From: a virus
DNA length: 64,000 nt
Direction: 5' to 3' (one strand)
Virus genome (UHGV): UHGV-0214148
Shown: in pieces, positions 6,633 to 55,245 of the stretch
Numbering within the stretch: position 1 is the first letter of the stretch
Layout: each line of letters opens with the position of its first letter
Program-made: the position numbers and the translations under genes
Notes under the pieces: generated by a model
The model's database searches: none
Told to the model about the DNA's origin: nothing
Seen by the model: only the letters and a program-made list of their open reading frames with translations

Positions 6633-9600
6633 ATGAAAGCGTATCCTTACGATCCTCGGGGGACGAAAACCGAGAATCACTTCTTAGAGGAGCGTATCAT
6701 CGGGTCAGAAAACAACAACGATCGGGTGGTGATTCTAGACCATCGCCCGTTTTTTGAAGATTTAGTCGTCAGACAACCAGGTTCAACCACCCCACTGAGT
6801 CGTGGGGTGGACTACGAACTGCAATATCAGCTGACGGAACTGGATGACTCGGTAGCAGCCAACGTGTATTGTGGGGTACACCTTATCAACCCTTCCATCA
6901 AAGGCATCGTAACCTTTGAAGGACAAATGCTCGGCGGTACGTTCTACGACCCGTTTGTTGATATTCTCGATGAACTGGTGAAATATTTGAATAACCCAGT
7001 CAGTGCTGACTGGTTGTTATTAGAAGGCAGACCGTCGTTATACCCGGCTACGCCTGCGGCAACGTCCTGGGCGGATTTGCTGAACAAAAAATATTTAGCG
7101 TCGGCAGTTCACGATATTGAATTGAAAACCGACGACGCTAACCAGTTAATTAAAGACAAATTAGCTGAAGTTAAAGCGTTAGTCGCCGCGCTGGGTAAAG
7201 AAATCGAGGCATTTAACTACCCGGCACACATCGCGGAAACCAACCCGCACCAAACTACTTCTGCACAGATTAGCGCACATCCTGTTAACTTGAAAACACC
7301 CGACACCTTTATGGCGTACGGGTTAAAGTTGAAAGCACTGACGGATGAACTGAAAGCGTTTCGTTTACCACAGTCAGTTATTGACACGTATATCTCCCAC
7401 TGGATTTCTTCAGAAGTACGGGGTGTGTTTAACTGTACGGTGTCAGGAAACCGTGCACAATTCCGCTCAAAAAACGGTGAGTCAGAAATCATTTTTGCGA
7501 ATGATGGCTTTACGTTAAAATCCAACGGTTCTGTGGTGTTGGCGGTAGGGCATCTGGAGGGAACGGGTGCAGGACGTTACATTAACTGGCGTGCTGGTAA
7601 AAACACCTTACGTATCGAGTCAACAGGCGATGCTTTAGGGATGAACAAACTCACCCTAAACGGTAACCCGTTACTGACTACCACGGCGTTGATGGAATAC
7701 CAACAAGATCCTGATGCTGGCGGGAGCGGCGGCGGTGACCCTGATGACTCGAAGGTGTACATCGAAGGCCGTAATGGGATTAGCTTCACCGGTAAAGGCT
7801 CTCGGACCGATCCTATCGTGGGTACTATCGACCCGACGAAAGCGACAACCGCTGAAAAAGGTGTTGTTAAGCTTAAAACTGGTAAAGGTACAGAAACGGT
7901 TGGGGTTGCAGCAACGCCAGCGTCATTAACACCTTATTCGACCGACCTATCAGGGTATGTGGCTAAAACGACCATGATTAACGGTAAGCCAATGAATGAC
8001 GGCTCCAGGACAATCACGAAAGCTGACCTGGGGTTAGGGCAAGCGGATAACACCGCAGACCTTGACAAACCGTTGTCAACCGAGTTAACTAAGGCGGTTA
8101 GCGGTCTAGCAGATGTAGGCCATCATCACGATTGGTCGGAGTTAGGCATTTATAAAGCTTCTCAATCTGTTTACGGTATTGGACGTTATGCAACTAACCA
8201 GAACGGTTTGGTTGAAAACCGTGCAGTGGTACCGAACATCTTAAAAGAGCTTTCGGCACGTTTAAGTGTGGTCGCTGCGGCAATTGCAAATGCGAAAGAA
8301 GGAACAGTAACGGATTTCGCTGCTGTAAAAGGCGCAGACTGGCGATTTAATAGCCAGGGTACGGCAATCTCCGTTCAGGATTTGAAATATTTCTATTTGC
8401 TGGACGGCACGAAAGGTGACAGTACCGTTACCGGTGCGATTGACCTGCAAACCACCCCGATGTTTAACTGGTTCTCACCGAATAACCAACTTGAGCTGAC
8501 TTGGGCTACGGGTAAGGTGAGTAACGGTACGGGAATCAACTGGACGGGTATTGAAGAACCGCCATTGATGGGGTTCCAGTCTGTCCCGGTAGGTAAAACC
8601 GCTACGCAGATGGGTGACCAGTCAGTTGTTACTGTATTGGCAAAAACGCGTGTAAAAGCATACCAACCGAAGCTCTGGGTTTATGCTGCTGGGGGTGGTC
8701 CGGTTACGGTTTACATTAACGGTATCCAGGCCGCTTCAGGCGAGTCCCCACTCGTTGCGGTGTACGAAACGTCGTCAGACGTTGAAAATTACACAGTGGC
8801 GGTTAAAGCCGAGTGCAGCGACACGACTAAATCCGCAGCGGTACAGTTCGAAGTTTACGATGGTGACTACCCCGTTTATTTCAGTGGTCCTGAAACGCGC
8901 GTAGAGCTTCTCCAGGAGTTTGTTACAACGCACGTAGGGGTTCGTCACTATTTGTACGTTAACATGCTCACAGGCTCTTTGTATTCGCGTGCTGAACCGA
9001 TTCAGAGTATTGCCGTTGACCCAGAGCGCGGTTATATCGGATATGTTGATATCGTTCCTGGTCAGTCTTACGCGAATAAAACTGTGGGGTTTGAAACCAC
9101 GTTTGATTTCGGGAAAAGTGCGGAAGTTAGCGAGCACATCAGCACTCGTAAGGCACACGGACTCAGCGCTGTTGACTGGGCGTTAACGGATAACCCACGG
9201 CTGCCGTTATTAAACCGTGCTATTGCTGAACCAAGAGCGTGTATCTTTAGGAAACCGTTAGCAACCGCTACAGGGGATGTTTTCCATCTTGTCAGTCGCG
9301 GCCTTTATACCTACGCACACAACCAAAACGTGAAGTCGAGTCTTCAATACGTTGTGATACCTGAAGGTGCTACGCCGTATTGTTGGTTTACACCATTTAA
9401 CCCGAAAGAAAACAACGCACCGACATTCGAAGGCTCGTTTGCGTTCGATGTTGACGATGTTGGTGGAACGCAAGCCCTTGCTGCTGCGCCGGATTTGGTT
9501 CTATGCACGTCAACGCAAGGTAGCAGCGTTAAACGTCGCTATCTGCGCATTGACCTAACTACCAAAACCTGTAAGTTGGGGATTGGTTCCCGTTCAGATT

Positions 9601-10908: not shown

Positions 10909-13900
10909 ATGCCGAGAGAAGACGCGGCGCAGTTTAACGGTACGCTAAGCACAGCGACGTACCCTAACCGATTTAACGTGGTCATTCCGCCTGAAGGACC
11001 TTTTTATCGTATCGGATTAAAACTCACAGTAGCCGACGATACCGCGCCTAACGGACGTCGTACTCTGATTGAGGGGCTGGACTACTATTTAGGCTATTAC
11101 TTTAAAGAACTCGCCGAAGCTGAACAAGATCAGATTTATGGCGGGTTTATGTTGCTTACTGCAACAGAAATCGAATATGAGATTTTAGGGGTAGCACGGC
11201 AGTATCGTGTACCGCAATCTGAAATCGGGAAGTTCTTAGTTCGTACTGACCTGAAAGACCCACGTAACGTGGACTGGTCGGAGTTAATGGCGTACGCGCC
11301 GGTTATTCAACCAATCGACCCCCCTGCTAACTTAGAAGAAGCTATTCTGAGGGACGAGGTCGTTAAAGCGTTGAACGATATCCGCAAGAAAATCATTCAG
11401 CGTTCAACAGAGTTAGATGCGGCCTTCACCGAAGTCACTAACCTTATTTACGAGAACGGTAAAAAGATTTTCGATGAAGAACTATACCAACACCACCTTA
11501 ATCCTAACGCTCACCAGTATACGACCAATGACGTTGGGGCCCTTCCGGTTTTAGGACGTGCTGTTGACGCTACAAAAGCGTTTGGGTTGACAATTGACCA
11601 ACTGGCTACGCTGATGGGTTCGGCGGGCATTGAGCAATCAGACGTTGAACAGCTAATGGGTGAAGCCCTCGGTACCGTTTACGGTCGTTGGGGCACCACG
11701 AACGGTAACGAACTAACGTTTAAAACACCGGGTGGACACATCATCAGCATCCGTGGTGATAAGTGGTTAATTACCTCCCCGCAACCGTTAGTGATTAAAG
11801 CAGACCAAGACAACAACGAATCCGGTTTGGCGGTTGAGTTTAGTGCGGGACTGAATACGCTTTGGGTACACTCTGGGTCAGAACAGGATGTATTAGCACC
11901 GGTCTATAACTCTGTGTATCTCGTTACACCAGAAATGGTGAACATGTACCTGACGTCTGTAACGTTACTTGAAGCGAATGCCTATTTCAAACCGTCAGAC
12001 ACCGTAAAACCGTACGGTACAGCGAAGCAGTCTAACCCACTAACGTTGAACGCGAATATTCCCACAGCAACCGAGTCGGTTTATGGGGTGTTTTCGATTA
12101 CGAATATCGCAACCTCTGTAGCGCTAGGCACTGCTATTTCCCAAAAGGCTGTGACCGAGTTAAAAAACCGGTTGGACTTGTACGTTGACGACGACTACAC
12201 GGTTAACGGTAGAGGGTTTGTTAAGACAGGCGACAACATGGTGTTAACCTTAACGAAGGCCGATTTCGGTATCGATAAGATGAATAACACCACACCCATC
12301 GCTAAACCGGTAACAAAAGCATTAGCGAACGTGCTGAAAAATAAAAGTTTGAAGGTACACACGCACACTACCGCTGATTTGGATAATGTCCCGATTGGTA
12401 GCGCAACAGTGGACGGTATCTTACAGCTGTGGGATGCGATTGATACCACGAATGATAAAGCCGTCACATCACGCCAAGGGTGGCTGTTCGCAAAAGAGAT
12501 TAAGAAGGTCTCTGATAAACTGAATACCCTCTTGCCCGCATGGACAACGGCCGGGAGCAAATATACCAACAATTCGATATTGCCGATCTTGTCGATGGGT
12601 AATTACGAAGGTTATGGTAAAAACATGGATGCGCTCCAGATGGTTATAGGGGTACAACAAGGTAAGCTTTATGCTTTAATTAGCTCTAAATCCGCCCTTC
12701 CGGGAACCGAGGGTATTTATTACGCCGTTGCCGGGTTAAAAAACGACAAAAGTCTTGGTGAAATTTACAAAACAACGTTCCGTTATAAGCCGAAAGGGTT
12801 AGAGACGAATTATCCTGGGGTGGAACTAAAAGAAATTACCGTTACGGGTACCGAAGCATTTATAGCGAAAGGCAGCGACGATAATTACTATTTAGTTAAA
12901 CTGAACGGTTCAATGGATTACACCAAACATACCGATGTCAGGTTGGTAACTTTCTCAGAATTTGTTTCAGAAACAACATGGGAATTTGTGCCGAATATGT
13001 TCATGGATCGTGTGGTCATAGCCGATAACGGCGTCTATGTTTTGCGTACGATGCTAATGGCCGATCTGAAAAACAATAGTCTGGTGGACTACATTAAGGA
13101 TACTCCGCAACCTATGTTCCGTGTTGGGTTATTGCGACTTAATAAAACCGATCGGTTTGAACAGGTTGATTTAAGCTCTACACGAAAAATCGGTAAGTGT
13201 GCCGATTTGGTTGAACCTGGCGCGTTCGATGTAGATAATCCGAATACGAAGCGTCTTGCCTACTTCACTGCGGAAGGCAAAGCGTTGTGGACAGTGAATT
13301 TACAATTAACTAGAGGGGTGTCAAGATGGATAACGCCCGTTGTTAAGGACGGTAATCTGTTAACCGTCGGCGTGTCTGGCGTTTGTCTTGGTTTTTCTTC
13401 AACGAAAGGTACCACATTCGGGCCATGGAATGGTGCTTATCGTCTCGACCTATTAACCGGGGAGGTTGGGTTAGAGACAACTAACATCTTCCCAATCAAA
13501 ATCGATACTACAGGTTGCTACTTAAAAGACGGAACAAAAATAGAGCTGAAATGGAAATGGGCTACTCGAAGTTCTGGCTATATGGCCGACAATAGAATCT
13601 GTGTCGGTGATATGGTTTATTCTTGCTGCTGTTCGACAGAAAAACAACTTGCACCGTCTCTCCATTACCAGAAACTCCCAGAAGGAGTTAGTTATCTGGA
13701 CTATGTTAAGTTGAGTGCGGGGTATGAGGGGCAATCTACGTTTGAAAATCGGATAAACCCTGTGGTGGGTTCGGTGTGGAAACCGTCTATGACTCTACCA
13801 TTGTTCTTCCCAGGAACAAACAAAGTATGGCTTAAACATCAAAAAACGGCTTATTTCATTGAAGCCGAATATGATAAAGATACGACTTATGGTTATCCTG

Positions 13901-16095
13901 GATACGGCGGGTTTGGACCAACATCCCGCCGTGTTGAAAAAAAAGCGAACGAATACGGCGTATTGACAAATATACCGCTGGTTGTTACGCCAGACATACC
14001 GAAAGGTCTACTAGATGGGGCTTACTTTATCGGTGCTGAAAGTAAACCATGTAAAGTTGTTTACGGTACCACTACGGTGGCTAGTGATCGGTTGTCTATC
14101 GATGCGGCAGAATGGGCGAAGTTGACTAATATTGTTCAGTCCAGCCAGTTCTCTGGGGCTTCTAACGGCAACGCCTATGAGCGGATTAGCGTAGCTAAGA
14201 CCAAAAAGAACAACTACAGTTTGTCCTTTTGGGTGCTTGGTCAAACGATGTCTGGTGGTCCGCTTTGTATCGCGATAGTGAGTCTTATCTATAAAGACAC
14301 TGACGGGGTAAATAAGTTTGCTTTTTACTTCTTTCAGGTAAAACCGACTATAACCAACGGGGTCATAAGGTTCGTTAGTTCGGAAGCGAGAATGATGACG
14401 TTCAGGGAAAAAATGGCCAGTAACGCCATTAATCTCTCACCCACAGCTTTTAATGGTGAACTTAAACAACGCTCCGGTCAAGTTTTCCTTTATTCGCAAG
14501 ACGGACAAAAGTTCAGATTCTCAATACATAACCTGGTTGGCGGGAATCTTGTAGGATCAGAGATTTCTTTTGCTTTTGGGATAAACTTGACTAAAAAAGG
14601 AGAATGGTTTACCGGCGAAATTCATCGGGCGTGGGGCTATACGTATACGCTGAATAATACATCTGAAGTCTATATACCCGATCTCTCGGGCATCGCGCTA
14701 TTGACTTGTAACTCGGAAGATTTAAACGAGTTGTATCTCGGTGGCGAACAGTATAGAATCTCTGATTTGTTTAACAAAAAATATACTGTTATCGATAAGA
14801 TTATTATTGGCGGCGTACAAACACAGAGCGGTTGGAATTTCTATCTGACGGAGGAAACCGAGTTAAGTTTTGGAAATAAAAGATATACCGTTCCAAGATG
14901 GTCCGTTGATTTAAGCGATGAATTCCCGACTAATCACGCTAACCAGACATTCTACGTTTATGCTGAAGTGGTCGGTTCTACTGCCCAATACCGCATCGGT
15001 TTAGAGCAGTTAGCTGATACCTCGTCGAGACTGTTTGTTGGGACAGTAACCACTGATTCGAACCGTATTACGGATATCAGTATCGATAAAGTAAAACGGT
15101 TAGGTCGTGTAAAAGAGCTGGAAAATCATGCCTCGGTTGTTGATCAGCACGATGTGGCGCAGGCGTTCGACAGGAAAACTGGTCCACTATTAACAGTGGT
15201 TAATAAACCCGTTAAAGCCATTACAGCATCTGCGAGCAAGGGTGCTGGGTATGTCGATGGCCAGAAATGGAATACGTTGTCCGGGATTGCAACGCGGCCC
15301 AGGTTGCCGGTACAGGAAACCTATTCAGGTTATAAAAGTATCAGCAGGGTGGCGTATGAGAACTGCGCTGACCAGTTCTGGCAGAAAGCGGTTGCTGCGA
15401 ACGTTGCAGCGGCTACTGCTTCTGAGAACAAACAAGCAGCAACCGCGAACATGAAGTGGCTGGGCGCGTATACGAGACCGACTACCGGTGCGAGTGTGTG
15501 TCTGGTACTAAGTCTACGTGTTAAAGTACCTGGTAATCCCGGCACCGCTAATCGTAGACTGAAAATCAGGCTTGCGGCTCCGACAGGTATAACTGAAGTT
15601 CGTTACGGGTTAAATCAGTCTGGCGGTACGATGGCTGAACAGACAGTAACGTTGACTGCCAACAGTTATCTGGAAAAAGAGCACGCCGGATTTAAGCCAG
15701 CCGAAGAAGTTCGTGTTCATGCTACCTTTGTCATTCCAAAAAATGAATACGAGAGTTACCGTACGAAGTTCGGTGCGGTTCAGTTGATTGACGTTGAATC
15801 GAACACTGTCATTAAACAGACAGATATCGACACACCGTTTTTCGTGTACACCGCCACGGAGCAAGCGGCACAATCTGGTTTGGTGTATAAAGCGGTTAAG
15901 AGTCAGTTTCGTCAACTCCCGGCTCAACCTGTCGTCATTGTAACTGATGGACAGACAGGGACTACGCCACCGGTGAAAACCTCGTTTGCTGACGGGACAT
16001 TAACGGTCTACGTGGCAACCACGTACGACGCGGTTAACCCAGCACAAACACGCGATATCGACAAGCTCCAGTTCAATCTTATGTTTACATCTTAA
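10909..16095 (+). CDS. tail fibre protein (1728 aa)
   Basis: AGGAG SD; N-terminal PPEGPFY...GLDY motif; fibre motif GIDKMNNTTPIAKPVTKAL...KVHTH. Confidence 0.7.
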   Translation: MPREDAAQFNGTLSTATYPNRFNVVIPPEGPFYRIGLKLTVADDTAPNGRRTLIEGLDYYLGYYFKELAEAEQDQIYGGFMLLTATEIEYEILGVARQYRVPQSEIGKFLVRTDLKDPRNVDWSELMAYAPVIQPIDPPANLEEAILRDEVVKALNDIRKKIIQRSTELDAAFTEVTNLIYENGKKIFDEELYQHHLNPNAHQYTTNDVGALPVLGRAVDATKAFGLTIDQLATLMGSAGIEQSDVEQLMGEALGTVYGRWGTTNGNELTFKTPGGHIISIRGDKWLITSPQPLVIKADQDNNESGLAVEFSAGLNTLWVHSGSEQDVLAPVYNSVYLVTPEMVNMYLTSVTLLEANAYFKPSDTVKPYGTAKQSNPLTLNANIPTATESVYGVFSITNIATSVALGTAISQKAVTELKNRLDLYVDDDYTVNGRGFVKTGDNMVLTLTKADFGIDKMNNTTPIAKPVTKALANVLKNKSLKVHTHTTADLDNVPIGSATVDGILQLWDAIDTTNDKAVTSRQGWLFAKEIKKVSDKLNTLLPAWTTAGSKYTNNSILPILSMGNYEGYGKNMDALQMVIGVQQGKLYALISSKSALPGTEGIYYAVAGLKNDKSLGEIYKTTFRYKPKGLETNYPGVELKEITVTGTEAFIAKGSDDNYYLVKLNGSMDYTKHTDVRLVTFSEFVSETTWEFVPNMFMDRVVIADNGVYVLRTMLMADLKNNSLVDYIKDTPQPMFRVGLLRLNKTDRFEQVDLSSTRKIGKCADLVEPGAFDVDNPNTKRLAYFTAEGKALWTVNLQLTRGVSRWITPVVKDGNLLTVGVSGVCLGFSSTKGTTFGPWNGAYRLDLLTGEVGLETTNIFPIKIDTTGCYLKDGTKIELKWKWATRSSGYMADNRICVGDMVYSCCCSTEKQLAPSLHYQKLPEGVSYLDYVKLSAGYEGQSTFENRINPVVGSVWKPSMTLPLFFPGTNKVWLKHQKTAYFIEAEYDKDTTYGYPGYGGFGPTSRRVEKKANEYGVLTNIPLVVTPDIPKGLLDGAYFIGAESKPCKVVYGTTTVASDRLSIDAAEWAKLTNIVQSSQFSGASNGNAYERISVAKTKKNNYSLSFWVLGQTMSGGPLCIAIVSLIYKDTDGVNKFAFYFFQVKPTITNGVIRFVSSEARMMTFREKMASNAINLSPTAFNGELKQRSGQVFLYSQDGQKFRFSIHNLVGGNLVGSEISFAFGINLTKKGEWFTGEIHRAWGYTYTLNNTSEVYIPDLSGIALLTCNSEDLNELYLGGEQYRISDLFNKKYTVIDKIIIGGVQTQSGWNFYLTEETELSFGNKRYTVPRWSVDLSDEFPTNHANQTFYVYAEVVGSTAQYRIGLEQLADTSSRLFVGTVTTDSNRITDISIDKVKRLGRVKELENHASVVDQHDVAQAFDRKTGPLLTVVNKPVKAITASASKGAGYVDGQKWNTLSGIATRPRLPVQETYSGYKSISRVAYENCADQFWQKAVAANVAAATASENKQAATANMKWLGAYTRPTTGASVCLVLSLRVKVPGNPGTANRRLKIRLAAPTGITEVRYGLNQSGGTMAEQTVTLTANSYLEKEHAGFKPAEEVRVHATFVIPKNEYESYRTKFGAVQLIDVESNTVIKQTDIDTPFFVYTATEQAAQSGLVYKAVKSQFRQLPAQPVVIVTDGQTGTTPPVKTSFADGTLTVYVATTYDAVNPAQTRDIDKLQFNLMFTS

Positions 16096-16135
16096 CGCCA
16101 CGGGACAAGGACGTCTCGGATTAAGGAGAGTGGCC

Positions 16136-17335
16136 ATGGCCTCCATTGTATACCAATACCCTTTAGATTTAACGGGAAGCCTAACCTCTAACGCCGTGGA
16201 GCGTCAGGTTACGTTAGGTACAGGTAAAGTTAACCGTGCGTTTGCTTTTCCTGATGGACCGTTTTATGCTGATACGTTCCGCTTGCGGGTTGCTAACCGA
16301 CCCGATGCGACGTATGAGCGCGGAACGGACTATGAGTTGATTTTTGCACACCCGGCTTACGAGAAATTGACGAAGAACCGGGAAGTGGTAATGGCGGTTG
16401 TTGTAACGAACACCGCGATTCCGACCGATATCACGGTATCGGCGCAAGTAGTCGGGGGCCCGCAGTCGGCAAACGTGACTGCGATAGAACAGGCGATTGC
16501 TGAGTTGAATCTCGATAATCGAACTGTTGGCTTTAAAGACTTGCGAAATGTTCCTGATACATTTCCGTCGGCACCGACGTATAAAGACGTCGGCGATATT
16601 TACGGCTTCGAATATATCATTACAGTGCTCGCTGGCATTAAAGATGCGATAACGGCGGGCGATGCTGTACAGCTTGAGAACATCAAAGCGATTCTCGAAA
16701 GCCTGAAAAACGATTTCCTGGACGCACTGAACGCGCACATTAACGCCACGGGTAACGTCCACCATCTGGACATTCATCAGGTTAACGGGTTAACGGAAAC
16801 GGAGATCCGTGCACTGATTCGTGACGTACAGTCTGCCATCGATGCAACGATTGCCGATATCAATGCATTGAAGAAAGCGGACGAAGCGTTAGGAAAACGT
16901 ATTGATGCTGTTGTCAAATCTTTGGAAGCGTGGAACGACCAACTTAACGTCGTTGCACAAAACTACCAGAAAATGGCACTGGCAATGGCGAACCTAAACT
17001 CGTTAGTGTTACAGTTACAGAAAAATATCAACGATCTGAGCACCAAACTCAACCAAGCGATTCAACGTATTGCTGCGTTAGAACAGCGGGGTAATGAGTC
17101 CGATCAGAAAATTGATAAACTGCAACAAAACCTGGATGCGCTTAAACAGCAGGTTAATAATAACACGAACGCAATCAGTCAGGCGAACCAGAACCTGCAA
17201 AACCATATTGCGGCAGATAACCCACACACAGGCTATCTCCACAAGAAATACGGTGGTGTGGTTCAGGCTCCAGTACACGTTAACGCTAACTTGACGTCCC
17301 GTGATGACGTTCAGGCAGAAGCGGGTACGAAATAA
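16136..17335 (+). CDS. short coiled-coil tail-fibre-like protein (399 aa)
   Basis: AAGGAG 7 nt upstream of ATG 16136 (track GTG 16130 is too close to the SD); N-terminal FPDGPFY...GTDY motif; long heptad-like Q/L/N-rich segment. Confidence 0.6.
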   Translation: MASIVYQYPLDLTGSLTSNAVERQVTLGTGKVNRAFAFPDGPFYADTFRLRVANRPDATYERGTDYELIFAHPAYEKLTKNREVVMAVVVTNTAIPTDITVSAQVVGGPQSANVTAIEQAIAELNLDNRTVGFKDLRNVPDTFPSAPTYKDVGDIYGFEYIITVLAGIKDAITAGDAVQLENIKAILESLKNDFLDALNAHINATGNVHHLDIHQVNGLTETEIRALIRDVQSAIDATIADINALKKADEALGKRIDAVVKSLEAWNDQLNVVAQNYQKMALAMANLNSLVLQLQKNINDLSTKLNQAIQRIAALEQRGNESDQKIDKLQQNLDALKQQVNNNTNAISQANQNLQNHIAADNPHTGYLHKKYGGVVQAPVHVNANLTSRDDVQAEAGTK

Positions 17336-17390: not shown

Positions 17391-17402
17391 TAAGGATACG
17401 TG

Positions 17403-17798
17403 ATGGCGATCAGTGTTAAAAATGTACGTGACCGAATCACCAACGTAGAGAACCAAATGGCAACTGGCCCACGTGTTGATCCGCAAGTTGCGTCGAAAGC
17501 ACATAATGCCGCCGACACTTTTTCGGGTTGGACGCCAAGTCGGTTAGACTGCGGGGGAAGTTGCAGCTGGACGTGCTCAAACGGCTGTACGCACGGCTGT
17601 ACGAGTTGTTCGGGCACCTGTACGTCAGTATGTGTAGGTAGCTGCTCCTCTGCGTGCGGTAACCAGTGTACTGGATGTAGTTCAACATGTTCCGGCGGCT
17701 GTTCAGGTTGCAGTGGGACCTGTGGGGGTGCTTGCTCGGGCCGTTGTTCTACGGGTTGTTCTGGTGCTTGCTCTGGTGGCTGTTCTGGCCCAACCTAA
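17403..17798 (+). CDS. Cys/Gly/Ser-rich precursor-like protein 1 (131 aa; about 50-aa leader plus 21-Cys core)
   Basis: AGGA 6 nt upstream of ATG 17403; leader ISVKNVRDRI...; core starts DCGGSCSWTCS and continues with Cys every 3-4 residues. Confidence 0.6.
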   Translation: MAISVKNVRDRITNVENQMATGPRVDPQVASKAHNAADTFSGWTPSRLDCGGSCSWTCSNGCTHGCTSCSGTCTSVCVGSCSSACGNQCTGCSSTCSGGCSGCSGTCGGACSGRCSTGCSGACSGGCSGPT

Positions 17799-17808
17799 GA
17801 GGTGAAAA

Positions 17809-18207
17809 ATGGCAATTGGATTACCTGCGCTACAAGCGCGGCTAAATAACATTGACAACACTGCATTGAAGAATACGGGTGCAGTGCAAAACTATATTCG
17901 TGGGAAAGCGACGAACAACGCAGACTTATTCGGTGGACAAGCTCGCAACCATTACGACTGTGGTGGGAGCTGTAGCTGGACCTGTTCGAGCTGTTCTGGT
18001 GGTTGTACAGGGAACGCATCAGGCGGCTGTGGTTCTTCGTGTTCTGCAAACTGTGTATCAGGTTGCAGCGCAGGCTGTAGCGGATGTTCGAATACATGTT
18101 CTGGTGGCTGCTCAGGAAGCTGTACGGGGAGTTGTTCTAACTCGTGTGTGGGAAACTGTTCTTCAGGCTGTTCGGGCAGTTGTTCTGGTGGGTGTTCTGG
18201 GAGGTAA
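17809..18207 (+). CDS. Cys/Gly/Ser-rich precursor-like protein 2 (132 aa; 20-Cys core)
   Basis: GAGGTG SD; same core start HYDCGGSCSWTCS; paralogue of the previous gene. Confidence 0.6.
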   Translation: MAIGLPALQARLNNIDNTALKNTGAVQNYIRGKATNNADLFGGQARNHYDCGGSCSWTCSSCSGGCTGNASGGCGSSCSANCVSGCSAGCSGCSNTCSGGCSGSCTGSCSNSCVGNCSSGCSGSCSGGCSGR

Positions 18208-18209
18208 TT

Positions 18210-18416
18210 GTGATTAGCCTTAAGAACCTTCGTGATCGATTAGTAACAGCGGAAGGGTATATTACGACCGCTAACGCAAACAACTATATTGCAAACCAGG
18301 GCACCGTGTCTTCAACCAATAACCTTGCCGGTTTACCTTTAAGCCATTATAACTGTAACGGCGGATGTAGCTGGTCGTGTAGCGGTAGCTGTAGTAAAGG
18401 TGCGGGGGGAAGGTAA
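18210..18416 (+). CDS. Cys-rich precursor-like protein 3 (68 aa, short core with 5 Cys)
   Basis: GTG 18210 with GGGAGG 5 nt upstream, directly after the previous stop; leader ISLKNLRDRL resembles the leader of peptide 1; core HYNCNGGCSWSCSGSCS. Confidence 0.5.
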   Translation: MISLKNLRDRLVTAEGYITTANANNYIANQGTVSSTNNLAGLPLSHYNCNGGCSWSCSGSCSKGAGGR

Positions 18417-18565
18417 CTAAGCCCTCCAGTGGTAGTATGTCTATTACGCAATAACCGAGTTAATCGTACGGGTTTACTGCTGAGTTTCAAGTTACCGGTA
18501 GGCAATGGCGCGGTGGGTTCTATACCCTGAATGTCCGTTTGACCGTGAAATAATTGGAGCAATCA

Positions 18566-19453
18566 ATGAAGAATGATTTACATTTAGCGTACAAAACAAT
18601 TTTCAATCATCCACTTCACATTTCTTCCCCTGATTCCGTACGTGCACACTTAGCAGATGAAGTTCGTCTGCTGACTCAGTTGCCGGGCGAATGGCCTAAA
18701 GTGCGCGGACGTTTCTTTACCGATCGTAAAAACTATCGTGTAGAAAATACGTTTAAGATTCGTGATCTGACGGCAGAAAGTGTGGTGGTCTTTACCGGTG
18801 ACTCCGAGTTGCGTGGTAAACTGGTTGCGGGTAAATATTTCTTTAGTGACGGGATTTTGAATAACTCCGTAGATATGGAATTGTTCTTTACCCCATTTGA
18901 AGAAATGGGCGCAAAACCGGTTGCCCGTCGTTGGTGGTCACCGGATTACTTAGGCTCGTTCCCGTATTTCTTTACCCTGGTAACACCAGAAACGAAGAAC
19001 TATTTCGATACGGAATCGTATATCGAAATTGAAGGGTACGAAGCGTTAGGGATTAATTGCTTAGCGGATTTAATGGCGTATAGCTATAAGTTCGTGTGGG
19101 ATCGTGAACGTTCCGTGTGGGTTGCCCTGACAGATGAACACGAAATCACAAAACGCATCCGTAAGCCTTGGATGCAGCATTTGATTCAAACACGTGTTGG
19201 CGAGCATCCGTCAACAGAAGCGGATCTGGCAAAACTCGTTAGTTTCTTAATGACGAAAGTCACGTTAACTAACGAAGAGAAAGCAGCAGTGTCGGCGGTG
19301 TTGGACCGTAACGTAACGTTGGCGGATTTAGAACGTTTAAATGTCCGTTATAAAGACCTTAACCGTATTTTGGAAGCGTATAACTCTCCATTCTTGTTAA
19401 CCCCTGGTGCTAACGTAGACGACGATCCTTTGTTCGCCATTGATTATATTTAA
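18566..19453 (+). CDS. hypothetical protein (295 aa) in the radical-SAM cassette
   Basis: GGAG SD upstream of ATG 18566; no recognisable motif; sits between the precursor-like genes and the radical-SAM genes. Confidence 0.55.
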   Translation: MKNDLHLAYKTIFNHPLHISSPDSVRAHLADEVRLLTQLPGEWPKVRGRFFTDRKNYRVENTFKIRDLTAESVVVFTGDSELRGKLVAGKYFFSDGILNNSVDMELFFTPFEEMGAKPVARRWWSPDYLGSFPYFFTLVTPETKNYFDTESYIEIEGYEALGINCLADLMAYSYKFVWDRERSVWVALTDEHEITKRIRKPWMQHLIQTRVGEHPSTEADLAKLVSFLMTKVTLTNEEKAAVSAVLDRNVTLADLERLNVRYKDLNRILEAYNSPFLLTPGANVDDDPLFAIDYI

Positions 19454-19474: not shown

Positions 19475-20398
19475 ATGACAACCAATGCAGAACCAAGGTT
19501 ATCGAATCGTTTATACGATAAACCCACCGTATTGTCCGTAGTCGCTACGTCCAAGTGCAACCTGGATTGTAGCTTCTGCGGTGGAGCCTATTACATGAAT
19601 CGTGAAGATTCTCCGCGAGAGTTTCAACGTGAGCGAATTTTGGAAGCGCTGGAAGCTAATCCAACCATTACCGAAATTCAGTGGACGGGTGGTGAGCCAT
19701 TACTGGCAACCCGTAAAATTGAGGCGTTTGTTGACGAATTAAAAGTGATTCGTCCAGAACTCAAACACCAGTTGTATACCAATGGCTTAAAGATGCGTAA
19801 ATCGCATCTCCCGTTGCTAAAACAGTTTGACAATGTCTACGTTAGCATCGATGGGTTTAAGTCGTCTGAGCGCCCGTTTATGCGCTTTATTGACGAAGGC
19901 TGTTACGAAGCACTGGAAACGATCTACGAGCTGGATAATGTCCAGACTTGGGGTGTCCTGACACGGGACCGTTTAGGGGACAAACGCTGGCACGAAGATA
20001 TTATTCAGCTGCACAGCGCGATTTACCATTACGGTTTCCGTGCAATGACGTTACTCTTAGATGCGAAAATGCCAAAACCTTTATCGCCCGACCACGTCAT
20101 GAACTTTATTTACGGCTACTATCAGGTTCAGGATAACATTGAACGACTGAATGTAGTAAATAGTCGTGAATGCGGCTTTACGGTAAGTAAAGTGTTTGAA
20201 GAAGGGTGTAACGTTTGCAGCGAAAGTCTTTGGATTAATGCAGACGGTGGTGAGCACCAACTCCAGAATGCACCTAACGTTCTGGAATCGGGATGTAACC
20301 AACTGGCCTTCTCTATCGGTGTAGAGGCGTACGAATATATTCGTCGCGTAGTGATGGCAGGGCGTAATAGAGGGGCGGCAAATGAGTCAAGTAAATGA
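19475..20398 (+). CDS. radical SAM enzyme (307 aa)
   Basis: N-terminal CNLDCSFC (CxxxCxxC) cluster and TGGEPLL SAM-binding motif; extra C-terminal cysteines (CNVC...C). Confidence 0.8.
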   Translation: MTTNAEPRLSNRLYDKPTVLSVVATSKCNLDCSFCGGAYYMNREDSPREFQRERILEALEANPTITEIQWTGGEPLLATRKIEAFVDELKVIRPELKHQLYTNGLKMRKSHLPLLKQFDNVYVSIDGFKSSERPFMRFIDEGCYEALETIYELDNVQTWGVLTRDRLGDKRWHEDIIQLHSAIYHYGFRAMTLLLDAKMPKPLSPDHVMNFIYGYYQVQDNIERLNVVNSRECGFTVSKVFEEGCNVCSESLWINADGGEHQLQNAPNVLESGCNQLAFSIGVEAYEYIRRVVMAGRNRGAANESSK

Positions 20399-21704
20399 AT
20401 TCCCTAAGCAGTTAACGTATCAGATCGTAACCAACCTTTCGTGTAACCTGGACTGCGAATATTGTTACGAACGTAAGTACCCGCGTAACAACAAAGCGGC
20501 GGATATTGTTGATTTCTTACACGCCTGTTTTGAACGTGATAAAAACGAACCGAATGTTGAAGTTATTATCGACATTATCGGTGGTGAGCCGTTCATGCAG
20601 CCTAAACTGCTGCTGGCTGCGTTTGAAACCGCTGAGCAGTTGTGTAAAGAACACAACCGACCGTTTATGTTTAGTATCTCCACGAACGGAACGCTGTTAG
20701 ATCGTCCGTTGAACCGTGAGATTGTAGAACGTTGGAAAGACAAACTTTCGGTTGGGGTTTCGATTGACGGCTTACCTGAGTCCCATGACCGTTATCGTAT
20801 CTTCACAACAACACGCCAGGGTTCTTACGAAGCCGCAGTACGTGGCTATAACTACTTAAAAGAGGTTGGCATTGCAGAGCTCGGCGTAAAAGCAACCTTT
20901 ACGTTAGAAACGCTGCCGTTCTATGCTGCGGGGATGAAGTCATTAATTGACATTACTGGCGGTGGGACAATTTCTGGAAACGTAACTTTCGAAGACGTTA
21001 TGCCACGTAGCATGGCGACGTCAATCGCTTTACAGATGATGGATGTGATAGATTACTGGGTTGAGAAAGGATTACACACCAACCCACGTAATATCTTATC
21101 GCACATCATTCCAGAAGGGTTGGATTTCGATACGATTTGGGAACCGAACTGGCGTGACCAGTTACTGTATAATGACACCGTACGGTTGAACCCAGAACGT
21201 TTACGTCCGTTCTGTGGGACGTTAACGCACATGACGTGCTTAGGGTTTGACCGTAAGATCTTTGGCTGTAACCGCTTTATGTCAACGGTAACGTCGCGTT
21301 CTGCGGTGTTTGAGTTGGTAGGTCGGGAATTCGTCAGTCTGGACAACGGTAAATTGTTAGAAGAGATTCAAACGCAATATACCAACTACCCAGAGACCTG
21401 TTTAGGTTGTCCGATGAAACACGCTTGTGGTAGCTGCGCGGCTGCTTCTTACGAGAACGGGGAAGGAACGTTAGAAGACCGTAAAGCGTATCACGCTGAA
21501 CGACGTCAGTGCGGCTGGACGACAGCGAAACTGATGGTGGCGGAATACTGGAAACAGAAGATGGGTACGACGTCAGCAAAAGCGTTCCATGACACGAGCA
21601 TGTGTTATTGCCCACGCTGTGTTCGTGAACGTGCCCAAAAGGAAAAATTATTAAGAGAAGCCAAAGATGAAACCAATTCTGATCAACAATATTACGAAGC
21701 GTAG
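20382..21704 (+). CDS. radical SAM enzyme with SPASM-type C-terminal domain (440 aa)
   Basis: N-terminal CNLDCEYC and GGEPF motifs; C-terminal CLGCPMKHACGSC plus further Cys pairs; start overlaps the upstream gene by 17 nt. Confidence 0.8.
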   Translation: MSQVNEFPKQLTYQIVTNLSCNLDCEYCYERKYPRNNKAADIVDFLHACFERDKNEPNVEVIIDIIGGEPFMQPKLLLAAFETAEQLCKEHNRPFMFSISTNGTLLDRPLNREIVERWKDKLSVGVSIDGLPESHDRYRIFTTTRQGSYEAAVRGYNYLKEVGIAELGVKATFTLETLPFYAAGMKSLIDITGGGTISGNVTFEDVMPRSMATSIALQMMDVIDYWVEKGLHTNPRNILSHIIPEGLDFDTIWEPNWRDQLLYNDTVRLNPERLRPFCGTLTHMTCLGFDRKIFGCNRFMSTVTSRSAVFELVGREFVSLDNGKLLEEIQTQYTNYPETCLGCPMKHACGSCAAASYENGEGTLEDRKAYHAERRQCGWTTAKLMVAEYWKQKMGTTSAKAFHDTSMCYCPRCVRERAQKEKLLREAKDETNSDQQYYEA

Positions 21705-22239
21705 AATTCGACTTCTGGATAAGTTTCTGGAAAACAGTAAGCTATTCGGTTGTTATGTGGTGATTAACGGTGAAGATTTTACCGATGACGTAAAACGCTT
21801 ACTGATTCGTCACGGCGTGACTGTAATCATCCCAATGTACTGCACCGAACTTACTGACCTGTCGGTCGCGGAAATTGAAAAACGTAACCCAGGGTTTGAA
21901 GAACGGGTATTGGATTTCCCACGTCACAAAATTGCGTTTCTACGCCGCTCTTTAAGCGAACCCAGCGCAGAATCTATCACTGTGTTGGCATTGTCCTTCC
22001 CCGGCATTACTATCTTCGCAACACGTAACCCGAACTCACCGATTGATGGGTTTTACGATGAGCGGGAGAAATTTAATAGCGTGATTTTTCCTGAGCTAAC
22101 GCCAGAAGAATGCCAGGGTATCCGTATCGATTGGGAATCTGACTTCGACACAAGATTCCGTCATATCGATTTTGAACTGTTAATCGAATTAGGGTTGATT
22201 AAAGGAGACGATGAATGTCTGCTACTGGTGAAGGCTTAA
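21667..22239 (+). CDS. hypothetical protein (190 aa), translationally coupled to the radical-SAM genes
   Basis: ORF overlaps the upstream gene by 38 nt; no motif recognised. Confidence 0.5.
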   Translation: MKPILINNITKRRIRLLDKFLENSKLFGCYVVINGEDFTDDVKRLLIRHGVTVIIPMYCTELTDLSVAEIEKRNPGFEERVLDFPRHKIAFLRRSLSEPSAESITVLALSFPGITIFATRNPNSPIDGFYDEREKFNSVIFPELTPEECQGIRIDWESDFDTRFRHIDFELLIELGLIKGDDECLLLVKA

Positions 22240-22886
22240 CGAAAGAAGAAATCCGTCGCCGTTATTTTGCGCACGATTTACCGATCGACCGTCATGGTAA
22301 CTACATGGAGAAAATCGGTAGCGAAGATCACGGCCGTACAGGGTTTTGTGCGTTACTGCACTATAAGCTGATTGATGGGATGTCTGATCGCGAAGCATTG
22401 GAACAAATGCGTAACTACGACATGTCTGAAATCGAAGCACGGTTTACGCTACAGAAAGCGAAAGACTTTGTTAACGACACGTTGGGGATTGACCTGGAAG
22501 AAATTCGTGCAGGTTTACGTTCCACGGTGCGGTACATCTTTACCGATGTTCAGAAAATTCTAAGCGCTTTGGAATTCCGTTATCAGGATGCACGCTATGC
22601 TGAGATTCAGGTAGGTGATTTCACTTTCCAGGCAGATGAGAAGTCACAGGTAGCACTGAGTCGTTATATCCAGTCAGAAACTGCGCCAGCGTATTGGTTA
22701 ACGGCTAACAACACCCGTATCGAACCGTTTACGTTAGAACAGTGCAAGACGTTGCTGGCAGCAATCGTTGAGCGTGATCAAAGACTACACCACGCAATGT
22801 CTGAGCAGAAAAGAGAAGTCAGGGCTTGGGCTGAAGCACGTGATTACGATTCGATAAAAGCGTTTGCGTTAGAGCAAGGGCTGTAA
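22215..22886 (+). CDS. hypothetical protein (223 aa)
   Basis: AAAGGAG 7 nt upstream of ATG 22215; overlaps the previous gene by 25 nt; last gene before the bidirectional terminator. Confidence 0.55.
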   Translation: MSATGEGLTKEEIRRRYFAHDLPIDRHGNYMEKIGSEDHGRTGFCALLHYKLIDGMSDREALEQMRNYDMSEIEARFTLQKAKDFVNDTLGIDLEEIRAGLRSTVRYIFTDVQKILSALEFRYQDARYAEIQVGDFTFQADEKSQVALSRYIQSETAPAYWLTANNTRIEPFTLEQCKTLLAAIVERDQRLHHAMSEQKREVRAWAEARDYDSIKAFALEQGL

Positions 22887-22911
22887 TCGACAGCGAAAAA
22901 AAAAAACAGTA

Positions 22912-22951
22912 TACCTACCTCCCGTAATAGGAGGTAGGTATTTTTATTTTT
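22912..22951. terminator. bidirectional intrinsic terminator at the strand switch
   Basis: 11-bp stem TACCTACCTCC/GGAGGTAGGTA, A11 run upstream, T-rich run downstream. Confidence 0.7.
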
Positions 22952-31300: not shown

Positions 31301-31346
31301 GGTATATTCTCCTAAAATGGTTTTTCGTTAAGTGAGAGCTTTTGTA

Positions 31347-31372
31347 CCCTCACCTAAGTAATATATATCTGA
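31347..31372 (-). promoter_or_regulatory. conserved 26-bp promoter-like element, copy A
   Basis: CCTCACCTAAGTAATATATATCTGA, nearly identical to copies at 35726 and 55204, each 47-76 nt upstream of a minus-strand start codon. Confidence 0.45.
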
Positions 31373-31383
31373 AATTATTTTTA

Positions 31384-31686
31384 TTAAAACCCCGCAATAA
31401 AACTACCTAGCGAGACACGCTGTAGGTATTTTGGTTTGCGTGCCAGGTAACAGTTCTTAGGATTACCTATTGCCATCTGCGCAACTGCACGTTCTAAACG
31501 CGGTGCTTCTAAGATGGCGCGATAGTTCCCTTCGTAATGCATTAACCACGCACACTCTTCAACGAAACGTTTTGCTTCGCGATAATCTAACGTACGAATT
31601 AACTTCTTGCCCCGGTATTGTTTTACATCACCGTTTTGACAAAATACAATAGTTTCACGATTCATTGATAATCTCCCAGAATTCAC
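31384..31686 (-). CDS. hypothetical protein (100 aa)
   Basis: ORF length. Confidence 0.5.
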   Translation of the reverse strand: MNSGRLSMNRETIVFCQNGDVKQYRGKKLIRTLDYREAKRFVEECAWLMHYEGNYRAILEAPRLERAVAQMAIGNPKNCYLARKPKYLQRVSLGSFIAGF

Positions 31687-35679: not shown

Positions 35680-35725
35680 CTAATCCTCCTTTAGGCTATA
35701 ACTAATGGAGTGAACGTAAATTTCA

Positions 35726-35752
35726 CTCTCTCCTAGGTAATATATATCTGAG
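35726..35752 (-). promoter_or_regulatory. conserved 26-bp promoter-like element, copy B
   Basis: CTCTCTCCTAGGTAATATATATCTGAG, 47-73 nt upstream of the 35679 start and just downstream of terminator 35766-35796. Confidence 0.45.
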
Positions 35753-35765
35753 AAAAAATATAAAA

Positions 35766-55154: not shown

Positions 55155-55203
55155 TGTAAATACTCCTTTAGGTTAACAAGTCGGTGTAAAGAGTTAATCA
55201 TAA

Positions 55204-55230
55204 CTCTCACCTAGGTAATATATATCTGAG
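55204..55230 (-). promoter_or_regulatory. conserved 26-bp promoter-like element, copy C
   Basis: CTCTCACCTAGGTAATATATATCTGAG, 50-76 nt upstream of the 55154 start; terminator 55246-55267 lies immediately upstream. Confidence 0.45.
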
Positions 55231-55245
55231 AAAAAATAAAATATA

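What the first reader, a model, noticed from the sequence alone, without database searches (positions are those of the whole stretch)
18566..19453. Unknown 295-aa protein between precursors and maturases
By position it is a candidate leader-recognition, protease, or scaffold component. It has no motif I can recognise and is preceded by a 150-nt untranslated spacer that may hold an internal promoter.
Basis: inference. Interest (0 to 1): 0.5.

Follow-up and report, generated by a model that had tools for sequence, protein, structure and literature searches.

The report
Accessory protein for phage fibre-tip maturation
This real, conserved 295-residue gene of a giant Salmonella-type phage has no recognisable fold or catalytic residues, yet it always sits between cysteine-repeat tail-fibre proteins and radical-SAM enzymes, so it is most likely a helper that presents those fibre tips for chemical cross-linking.

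Summary
The ORF is real: 18566-19453 (+), 295 aa, ATG with a GGAG 7 nt upstream. The window is a jumbo phage related to SPN3US, and the ORF is the orthologue of SPN3US gp165 (phrog_8030, function unknown).

What the searches gave:
- Pfam, NCBIfam and PDB sequence searches found nothing.
- No residue is invariant across the wider family, which argues against an enzyme.
- SPN3US gp165 is absent from the published virion proteome.

The strongest evidence is gene order. In about 30 loci from at least nine divergent phage or prophage lineages, a family member lies next to two things. One is a protein ending in a CxxxC-repeat. The other is radical-SAM/SPASM enzymes that lack their own recognition domain and are closest to the CXXX-repeat maturase family TIGR04115.

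In other phages the Cys-repeat is the C-terminus of full-length tail fibres. The "precursors" are therefore probably fibre-tip modules, not free peptides.

Best reading: a non-catalytic, non-virion adaptor or chaperone for radical-SAM maturation of fibre tips. It is analogous to, but not homologous with, TIGR04116 or RRE proteins.

The 149-nt spacer exists but is not conserved across relatives. No promoter evidence was found.

The parts
16130..17335 (+). Context: coiled-coil virion protein, orthologue of SPN3US gp167. gp167 is abundant in the published virion proteome, where it carries no head label. The gene lies directly upstream of the Cys-repeat genes.
   Evidence: phrog_2163, E 5e-103; SPN3US gp167 detected in virions; conserved position in all SPN3US-like loci
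17400..17798 (+). CxxxC-repeat protein A, 131-132 aa. About 49 aa of N-terminal fibre-like region, then the junction ...SRLDCGGSCSWTC, then about 20 Cys at mostly 4-residue spacing. Likely substrate.
   Evidence: phrog_6085 E 1.6e-40; weak TIGR04114 hit
17809..18207 (+). CxxxC-repeat protein B, 132 aa, with junction NADLFGGQARNHYDCGGSCSWTC. Likely substrate.
   Evidence: phrog_6085 E 1.4e-39; TIGR04114 19.4 bits against a cut-off of 20
18210..18416 (+). Short CxxxC protein C, 68 aa, GTG start with GGAGG 5 nt upstream. It keeps the N-terminal region and one CNGGCSWSCSGSCS motif only. It is conserved in SPN3US, pEa_SNUABM_29, L014, L015 and in the unrelated L005 phage.
   Evidence: phrog_6085 E 2.3e-24
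18417..18565 (+). Intergenic spacer, 149 nt. It carries a 127-nt insertion relative to SPN3US and pEa_SNUABM_29. The insertion is shared with L015 and L016.
   Evidence: no promoter, terminator, Rfam or structure signal
18566..19453 (+). The finding: 295-aa acidic (pI 5.5) protein with a single Cys, orthologue of SPN3US gp165. It has an N-terminal alpha+beta domain and a C-terminal helical domain. The family-wide conserved core is roughly residues 160-275. Proposed non-catalytic adaptor or chaperone of the cassette.
19475..20398 (+). Radical-SAM protein 1, 307 aa (orthologue of SPN3US gp164). The CxxxCxxC motif is at residues 28-35, which leaves no room for an N-terminal recognition domain.
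   Evidence: PF04055 E 6e-14
20382..21704 (+). Radical-SAM/SPASM protein 2, 440 aa (orthologue of SPN3US gp163). The CxxxCxxC motif is at residues 21-28, so there is no N-terminal RRE. Its two best family matches are the PapB ranthipeptide maturase (117 bits) and TIGR04115, the CXXX-repeat-target maturase (115 bits). Both are below their cut-offs.
21667..22239 (+). 190-aa protein of unknown function (gp162-like, phrog_7988). It also follows the radical-SAM genes in the unrelated L005 cassette, so it may be a further accessory.
22215..22886 (+). DUF4376 protein (gp161-like), the last gene before the only terminator-like hairpin on this strand (22911-22941).

Best explanation
The protein is a dedicated, non-catalytic accessory (adaptor or chaperone) of a phage cassette that matures cysteine-repeat (CxxxC) tail-fibre tip modules with radical-SAM/SPASM enzymes.

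Proposed mechanism:
1. The three CxxxC-repeat proteins are made. Each has a fibre-like N-terminal region and a conserved junction, [LF]xGQxxxxY-x-C-x-G-(x)-C-S-W-x-C.
2. The gp165-like protein binds the junction and/or the unfolded Cys-rich tail through its conserved C-terminal core (about residues 160-275). It keeps the tail soluble and reduced, and docks it onto the two radical-SAM enzymes, which have no recognition domain of their own.
3. The SPASM enzyme, a sister of the TIGR04115/PapB thioether-forming maturases, installs sulfur-to-carbon cross-links along the repeat ladder. The smaller radical-SAM enzyme adds or primes a second modification.
4. The accessory is released and is not built into the virion.
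5. The rigidified Cys-rich module becomes part of the baseplate fibres encoded just upstream.

Shown here: the gene, its conservation, its invariable linkage to substrate and enzymes, the absence of an RRE in the enzymes, the lack of conserved catalytic residues, the unmatched fold, and absence of the orthologue from SPN3US virions.

Inferred: physical binding, the chemistry, and the virion location of the Cys-repeat proteins.
For: 1. Synteny. A census of ORFs in all fetched loci shows CXXX-protein -> family member -> radical SAM in the window, SPN3US, pEa_SNUABM_29 and 17 other SPN3US-like contigs, and in L004, L005, L009, L031, L032 and L033. L011/L012 have the order substrate -> rSAM1 -> member -> rSAM2. 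Two prophage-like regions in bacterial MAGs follow the same pattern, one of them with two tandem paralogues. The neighbours outside the cassette differ between lineages, so the module moves as a unit.
2. Both window radical-SAM proteins start their CxxxCxxC motif at residues 21-35. They align from profile position 2-14 of the RRE-less PapB and TIGR04115 models, but from about position 105 of the RRE-containing SCIFF maturase model. Substrate recognition must therefore come from elsewhere.
3. The broad alignment (37 sequences, down to 15% identity) has no invariant residue. Conservation peaks at residues 161-240 in hydrophobic and helical motifs: LADLxxYSYKFxW, and ADLxKLVxFLLxKVxLTxEE.
4. The AF2 model is confident (pLDDT 89.8, pTM 0.86) but matches no enzyme, RRE or structural-protein fold.
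5. gp165 is not among the 86 SPN3US virion proteins, whereas neighbouring gp167-170 are.
6. Cassettes whose radical-SAM enzyme scores at or near the TIGR04115 cut-off lack this family, and one of them (L137) carries the small TIGR04116 'CXXX repeat peptide modification system protein' instead. This fits two alternative accessories filling one role.
7. The substrates are fibre modules. In L009 the repeat ends a 258-aa protein with HxHDxRY fibre repeats that sits downstream of the tail genes L, K and J. In L004, L031-L033, L154 and L155 the repeat ends 221-482-aa fibre-like proteins. The L009 and L004 proteins, the two of these scanned against PHROGs, hit the same phrog_6085 as the window's short proteins.
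Confidence: 0.55

Rival explanations
1. It is a classical tail-fibre assembly chaperone. It promotes folding or trimerisation of the Cys-rich fibre tip, or its attachment to the gp167/gp168 fibres, independently of the radical-SAM enzymes. It sits near them only because all are fibre-tip genes.
For: In L004, L009, L031-L033 and L155 it is encoded immediately downstream of a fibre gene, which is the usual place for a fibre chaperone. It is absent from SPN3US virions, like many fibre chaperones. It has no catalytic signature.
Against: It was never found next to a fibre gene without radical-SAM genes. In L011/L012 and L154 it lies between two radical-SAM genes rather than next to the fibre. It shows no sequence or significant fold similarity to known fibre-assembly proteins. 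This rival overlaps the best explanation; the two differ only in whether the enzymes need the protein.
Confidence: 0.2
2. It is a low-copy structural component of the virion, for example an adaptor that joins the Cys-repeat proteins to the baseplate fibres.
For: It lies within a block of tail-fibre and baseplate genes in SPN3US-like phages. Low-abundance proteins can escape mass spectrometry.
Against: It was not detected in purified SPN3US virions although 86 proteins were, down to four spectra. It has no similarity to any structural protein. In L005 the cassette lies away from tail genes, among Acb2/Tad1-like, GIY-YIG and Cpn60 genes.
Confidence: 0.08
3. It is an enzyme of a new fold, such as a protease that trims the N-terminal region or a further modifying enzyme.
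For: RiPP clusters often encode a leader peptidase. The fold is unassigned, so a new catalytic fold cannot be excluded. Within the close SPN3US-like family several polar residues are invariant: H28, R47, R49, E150, D168, K175, R197, R199, K200.
Against: None of these residues survives in the wider family, which has no invariant column apart from Met1. There is no peptidase or other enzyme fold match. Fibre-fused substrates have no leader to remove.
Confidence: 0.07
4. It is unrelated to the cassette's chemistry, for example a regulator or a host-interaction factor carried along with it.
For: The C-terminal helical region gave weak, non-significant similarity to a MarR-type repressor (AdcR, E 0.62).
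Confidence: 0.05

Closest known systems
phrog_8030 / SPN3US gp165 (SPN3US_0165, YP_009153459)
   Same: Full-length orthologue: 75% identity to the SPN3US protein, identical length, identical neighbours.
   Different: Nothing substantive. The family is catalogued as 'unknown function', and no paper in the held library discusses SPN3US gp165.
TIGR04116 'CXXX repeat peptide modification system protein' (CXXX_rpt_assoc), the accessory of the TIGR04114/TIGR04115 CXXX-repeat system
   Same: Same kind of context: an uncharacterised, non-radical-SAM protein encoded beside a CXXX-repeat target and a CXXX-repeat-type radical-SAM/SPASM maturase. A phage example is L137. The two accessories appear to be mutually exclusive.
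   Different: TIGR04116 is a 90-position model, whereas this protein has 295 aa. The window protein does not hit it at all, and only one distant family member does, at E 0.4. hhalign of the family profiles against the L137 member gives probability below 1%. In L137 the TIGR04116-like gene lies after the enzyme; here the gene lies before it.
RiPP recognition elements (PqqD-like RRE domains), discrete or fused to radical-SAM/SPASM maturases
   Same: Proposed role: substrate recognition for maturases that lack their own recognition domain. Both radical-SAM proteins here lack an N-terminal extension.
   Different: No PqqD Pfam hit and no winged-helix fold match. The protein is three times larger. 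The substrates are probably fibre proteins rather than leader-core peptides.
Ranthipeptide/SCIFF-type thioether maturation (PapB, CteB) and the uncharacterised CXXX-repeat system (TIGR04114/04115)
   Same: The cassette's SPASM enzyme matches PapB (117 bits) and TIGR04115 (115 bits) best and over nearly its full length. The substrates carry CxxxC repeats.
   Different: All scores are far below the curated cut-offs of 340-350 bits, so this is a sister clade. A second, smaller radical-SAM enzyme and the gp165-like protein are added. The repeats are attached to phage fibre modules.
Phage tail-fibre assembly chaperones (lambda/Mu Tfa, T4 gp38/gp57A, Pam3 fibre chaperone)
   Same: Encoded next to fibre genes and not part of the virion.
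   Different: No sequence or significant structural similarity. Always linked to radical-SAM enzymes.

Membership tests
phrog_8030 (SPN3US gp165-like) | Full-length match to the family HMM | tested here: met
   E 1.8e-141, residues 1-293 on profile positions 1-293 of 295
RRE / PqqD-like recognition domain | Sequence match to PqqD-type models | tested here: not met
   No Pfam or NCBIfam hit for the protein or for 37 family members
RRE / PqqD-like recognition domain | Winged helix-turn-helix fold (three-stranded sheet plus three helices) | tested here: not met
RRE / PqqD-like recognition domain | Binds the substrate's leader or recognition sequence | not testable with these tools
   No complex modelling or experiment was available
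TIGR04116 CXXX_rpt_assoc | HMM score at or above the curated cut-off (50 bits); roughly 90-aa protein | tested here: not met
   No hit for the window protein. One of 37 relatives hits at E 0.4. The protein has 295 aa against a 90-position model
TIGR04116 CXXX_rpt_assoc | Profile-level homology to a family member | tested here: not met
   hhalign of A2 and A5 against the L137 member gave probability 0.5% and 0.2%. Only one member sequence was available, so this is a weak test.
TIGR04116 CXXX_rpt_assoc | Encoded beside a CXXX-repeat target and a CXXX-type radical-SAM maturase | tested here: met
Peptidase (leader protease) | Conserved catalytic residues and a peptidase fold | tested here: not met
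Tail-fibre assembly protein families | Sequence or fold similarity to known Tfa or fibre chaperones | tested here: not met
Virion structural protein | Detected in purified virions | tested here: not met
   The orthologue gp165 is absent from the SPN3US virion proteome table (PMC5694885 Supplementary Table 1). This is indirect: it concerns the orthologue, not this phage.
CXXX-repeat radical-SAM system (TIGR04114 target + TIGR04115 maturase), for the cassette as a whole | Maturase and target score above the curated cut-offs | tested here: not met
   rSAM2 scores 114.7 bits against a cut-off of 350. Protein B scores 19.4 against 20. The cassette is a sister clade rather than a member; the L115 enzyme, scoring above the cut-off, reaches 385.6 bits.

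The most novel reading that the evidence does not exclude
The gp165-like family has a fold with no detectable relative. It is a previously unrecognised substrate-presenting partner for radical-SAM/SPASM enzymes, replacing the RRE or TIGR04116 accessory. The cassette it belongs to applies RiPP-type cysteine cross-linking chemistry to full-length structural proteins, so that many phages, from 40-kb siphoviruses to jumbo myoviruses, build covalently stapled, cysteine-ladder tail-fibre tips.
Probability: 0.4. Interest if true: 0.8.

Novelty: new variant of a known kind. Interest (0 to 1): 0.62.

Why it matters
Radical-SAM peptide maturation is known mainly from secreted natural products (RiPPs). 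Here a related enzyme set, with a conserved accessory protein of unmatched fold, is wired into phage tail-fibre modules across very different phages.

If the reading is right:
- It identifies a new type of partner protein for RRE-less radical-SAM maturases.
- It points to enzymatic covalent cross-linking of receptor-binding fibre tips, a form of virion maturation I could not find described.
- It gives a function to three or four 'hypothetical' genes of the SPN3US model phage.
- It shows that two of SPN3US's Cys-repeat genes are unannotated and the third (gp166) is annotated in the wrong frame. Proteomic searches based on the GenBank annotation may therefore have missed them.

It would also make the uncharacterised CXXX-repeat system (TIGR04114-04116) experimentally approachable in a phage that can be manipulated genetically.

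Tried and rejected
- Sequence searches of the protein against Pfam, NCBIfam and PDB: nothing. The same searches on 37 family members, and a family profile against PDB: only chance-level hits.
- Attempts to reach TIGR04116 or TIGR04115 members above the curated cut-offs for a profile-profile test. A homologue search with the L031 enzyme returned only unnamed phage-type enzymes. A search with the L137 TIGR04116-like protein returned only itself. The homology test therefore rests on a single sequence.
- A DNA pattern scan for nine Cys codons at 12-nt spacing in viral contigs. It mostly returned simple tandem repeats read in arbitrary frames. Only L089, L115, L117 and L137 were genuine Cys ladders.
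- Spacer. The sigma-70 and terminator scan, RNA folding, Rfam, and repeat searches within the window found nothing. An exact-match search in viral contigs also found nothing, although the near-identical contig L016 carries the same spacer with SNPs in the searched 31-mer. The 33-aa ORF inside the spacer loses its start codon in L015 and shows 6 synonymous against 9 non-synonymous changes (read by eye from the alignment), so it was rejected as a gene.
- Literature. No paper in the held library links SPN3US gp163-166, CXXX-repeat maturases, or radical SAM to tail fibres. The SPN3US infected-cell proteome paper is not held.
- Alignments A2 and A5 were too diverse for pattern-based locus scans.

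Full report
**1. Observation**

The window encodes an ORF on the + strand from ATG 18566 to the stop ending at 19453, giving 295 aa. A GGAG lies 7 nt upstream; the mechanical ORF list extends to an in-frame TTG at 18554.

The gene is real.
- It matches PHROG family phrog_8030 end to end (E 1.8e-141).
- It has 48 full-length relatives of about 295 aa in a 5.8-billion-protein collection.
- Against its SPN3US orthologue it shows 112 identical, 110 synonymous and 73 non-synonymous codons.
- Its G+C content (0.439) matches that of the window (0.448).

Megablast places the window among SPN3US-like jumbo phages (Seoulvirus relatives) at about 72% nucleotide identity. An IMG/VR contig of 225 kb carries a 99% identical copy (L016). 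The orthologue is SPN3US gp165 (SPN3US_0165), annotated 'hypothetical protein'.

**2. Surroundings**

Upstream:
- A 1728-aa gp168-like fibre/baseplate protein (10909-16095).
- A gp167-like coiled-coil virion protein (16130-17335).
- Three Cys/Ser/Gly-rich ORFs: 17400-17798 and 17809-18207 (132 aa each, about 20 Cys, mostly at 4-residue spacing), and 18210-18416 (68 aa, one CNGGCSWSCSGSCS motif).

Downstream:
- A 307-aa radical-SAM protein (19475-20398).
- A 440-aa radical-SAM/SPASM protein (20382-21704).
- A 190-aa unknown protein (phrog_7988).
- A DUF4376 protein.

The only terminator-like hairpin on this strand between 16000 and 23500 is at 22911-22941, so the block could be one transcription unit.

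The 440-aa enzyme is best matched, over nearly its full length, by the PapB ranthipeptide maturase model (117 bits) and by TIGR04115, 'radical SAM peptide maturase, CXXX-repeat target family' (115 bits). Both scores are far below the curated cut-offs of 340-350 bits. The Cys-rich proteins graze TIGR04114, the CXXX-repeat target model (19.4 bits against a cut-off of 20).

Both enzymes begin their CxxxCxxC cluster motif at residues 21-35. Neither therefore has room for the N-terminal RiPP-recognition element that SCIFF-type maturases carry; alignments to that model start at about profile position 105.

**3. What the protein itself shows**

Pfam, NCBIfam and PDB sequence searches return nothing.

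An AlphaFold2 model built on 42 homologues is confident (mean pLDDT 89.8, pTM 0.86). It has an N-terminal alpha+beta part of roughly residues 1-190, followed by four to five helices at 191-272.

Fold searches:
- Foldseek against BFVD finds only the orthologue of Erwinia phage Asesino.

An exhaustive profile search of 1.84 billion cluster representatives found only 43 proteins. The distant ones (230-290 aa) match mainly profile positions 160-275.

Aligning 37 members down to 15% identity leaves no invariant residue apart from Met1. Conservation peaks at residues 161-240 in hydrophobic and helical motifs: LADLxxYSYKFxW, and ADLxKLVxFLLxKVxLTxEE. This is the pattern of a binding or scaffolding protein, not of an enzyme. 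The protein is acidic (pI 5.5) with a single Cys.

**4. Context across phages: the decisive evidence**

I fetched the DNA around distant family members and ran an ORF census with BLAST, HMMs and a Cys-ladder pattern. Every locus with enough flank shows a CxxxC-repeat protein, a family member, and radical-SAM gene(s) side by side.

| Loci | Type | Arrangement |
|---|---|---|
| Window, SPN3US, pEa_SNUABM_29, 17 other contigs | SPN3US-like jumbo phages | CXXX proteins -> member -> rSAM1 -> rSAM2 |
| L005/L006 | Unrelated large phage | The same 'two long + one short' Cys-repeat genes; neighbours are Acb2/Tad1-like, GIY-YIG and Cpn60 genes, not tail genes |
| L009/L010 | Lambda-like siphovirus tail | Tail L, K, J, then fibres; three radical-SAM genes |
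| L004 | Phage contig | Downstream of a central-fibre J homologue |
| L011/L012 | Phage contigs | Member lies between two radical-SAM genes |
| L031, L033 | High-GC phages of about 40 kb | A single SPASM enzyme |
| L032 | 284-kb phage | The two enzymes are fused |
| L154, L155 | Prophage-like tail regions in bacterial MAGs | Synergistaceae MAG L154 has two tandem paralogues of the family; L155 has a fused enzyme |

The SPASM enzymes of the cassettes scanned (window, L009, L011, L031, L032, L033) score 115-190 bits on TIGR04115. By this measure they form a sister clade of that family.

Two viral cassettes have enzymes that score at or near the TIGR04115 cut-off (L115, 386 bits; L137, 341 bits). 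These lack the gp165-like family. L137 carries instead a 118-aa protein that matches TIGR04116, 'CXXX repeat peptide modification system protein' (E 4e-6).

hhalign finds no relation between that protein and the gp165-like profiles (probability below 1%). Only one distant family member touches TIGR04116, at E 0.4. The two accessories therefore look like analogues occupying the same niche, not homologues.

**5. The 'precursors' are probably fibre-tip modules**

- In L009 the CxxxC ladder ends a 258-aa protein with a typical fibre N-terminus and repeated HxHDxRY(F/Y)TExE motifs.
- In L004, L031, L032, L033, L154, L155 and L011 the ladder ends fibre-like proteins of 221-533 aa, placed among tail genes.
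- The C-terminal parts of the L009 and L004 proteins hit phrog_6085, the family of the window's short Cys-rich proteins. The match includes part of the pre-repeat region.
- A junction motif, [LF]xGQxxxxY-x-C-x-G-(x)-C-S-W-x-C, is shared by the window proteins and by L005, L009 and L011; L154 and L155 share its C-S-W-T-C part. From my own knowledge, the part before the first Cys resembles the 'NAxxLxGxxxxxF/Y' motif common in tail fibres. I did not test this.

The published SPN3US virion proteome detects gp167-170 but not gp161-166 (PMC5694885, Supplementary Table 1). This argues that gp165 is not structural.

It says nothing about the Cys-repeat proteins. In the SPN3US records gp166 is annotated in the wrong frame, and the other two Cys-repeat ORFs are not annotated at all. 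If the mass-spectrometry searches used that annotation, as I assume, they could not have found these proteins.

**6. The spacer**

The 149-nt gap (18417-18565) is real but not a conserved feature. The gap between the third Cys-repeat ORF and the gene varies:

| Loci | Gap |
|---|---|
| SPN3US | 22 nt |
| pEa_SNUABM_29 | 27 nt |
| L020 | similar to the two above |
| L018 | about 64 nt |
| Window, L015, L016 | 149 nt |
| L014 | 511 nt, with an extra ORF |

Where the 149-nt version is shared it is 85% identical between the window and L015. The flanking genes are only 67-79% identical. That is unexplained.

The spacer has no sigma-70-like site on the + strand, no terminator-like hairpin, no Rfam match, and folds no better than shuffled sequence (z = +0.9). 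It occurs once in the window. Promoters of the phage's own RNA polymerases could not be assessed.

**7. Mechanism and rivals**

The best-supported reading is a non-catalytic, non-virion accessory. It binds the junction and/or the Cys-rich tail of the fibre-tip proteins and presents them to the RRE-less radical-SAM enzymes. By analogy with PapB, SCIFF and QhpD-type SPASM enzymes (established knowledge, not tested here), those enzymes would install thioether cross-links along the CxxxC ladder. I put this at about 0.55.

| Rival | Confidence | Main point |
|---|---|---|
| Pure fibre-assembly chaperone acting independently of the enzymes | 0.2 | Overlaps the best reading; strict radical-SAM linkage, and placement between enzymes in some loci, argue against independence |
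| Low-copy virion adaptor | 0.08 | Orthologue not detected in virions |
| Enzyme of new fold | 0.07 | No conserved catalytic residues |
| Unrelated passenger or regulator | 0.05 | Strict linkage in a fixed position |

**8. Novelty and score**

The protein family is already catalogued (phrog_8030) but has no assigned function. I found no paper discussing it, the CXXX-repeat system, or radical-SAM modification of tail fibres.

The system is a new variant of a known kind: CXXX-repeat radical-SAM maturation, with a different accessory of unmatched fold, embedded in phage fibre modules. All of the functional reading is computational inference. The score of 0.62 is accordingly moderate to high, not higher.

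Noticed in passing
L001 (SPN3US NC_027402) 7950-8342, 8353-8757, 8773-8979; record complement 143828-144220, 143413-143817, 143191-143397: SPN3US has the same three Cys-repeat ORFs as the window (130, 134 and 68 aa). The record annotates only 'gp166' (143409-143744), and in a different frame, giving an Arg/Val/Ala-rich artefact. The other two are unannotated. pEa_SNUABM_29 annotates reverse-strand artefacts over the first two and only the short third ORF correctly.
   Followed up: partly
window 18210-18416; L005 7786-7995; L001 8773-8979: A short third paralogue (68-69 aa) keeps the N-terminal region and only the first C-G-G-(S)-C-S-W motif. It is conserved directly upstream of the gp165-like gene in SPN3US-like phages and in the unrelated L005 phage. 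Its role (primer, decoy, cap or regulator) is unknown.
   Followed up: partly
window 18417-18565 (also L015 2852-3000, L016): The 149-nt spacer carries a 127-nt insertion absent from SPN3US and pEa_SNUABM_29. Between the window and L015 it is more conserved (85%) than the flanking genes (67-79%), and includes a 31-nt block that is identical in both. No function was found.
   Followed up: partly
L020 4392-5303 and L021 4393-5304: Two SPN3US-like contigs carry an extra rSAM1-type paralogue inserted between Cys-repeat genes A and B.
   Followed up: no
L154 6974-7864 and 7839-8594 (Synergistaceae MAG JAVVWB010000003.1): Two tandem paralogues of the gp165-like family lie between rSAM1 and rSAM2 in a prophage-like tail region. 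The family therefore also occurs in temperate phages of anaerobes.
   Followed up: no
L032 7582-9642; L155 7503-9521: The two radical-SAM enzymes of the cassette are fused into one protein of 672-686 aa (rSAM1 at the N-terminus, SPASM enzyme at the C-terminus). This indicates that they act together.
   Followed up: no
L137 5656-7038, 7005-8300, 8266-8622: A phage contig encodes a 460-aa protein whose C-terminal half is a ladder of about 50 Cys. It is followed by a near-cut-off TIGR04115 maturase (341 bits) and a 118-aa TIGR04116-like accessory. The classical CXXX-repeat system therefore also occurs in phages on large, apparently structural proteins.
   Followed up: partly
window 31346-31384, 35725-35763, 55203-55241: A repeated intergenic motif, ACTCTC(T/A)CCTAGGTAATATATATCTGAG, is present in three copies at 74-100% identity. 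It may be a phage promoter or regulatory element. It is absent from the spacer upstream of the finding.
   Followed up: no
window 21667-22239; L005 10980-11498: The gp162-like protein (phrog_7988) follows the SPASM enzyme both in SPN3US-like phages and in the unrelated L005 cassette. It may be another accessory of the extended cassette. It is missing from the minimal cassettes L009 and L031-L033.
   Followed up: partly
L014 916-1440; L013 1195-1467: In close relatives (89% identical gp165-like protein) the gap upstream of the gene holds additional called ORFs of 174 and 90 aa. This intergenic position is therefore a hot spot for insertions.
   Followed up: no
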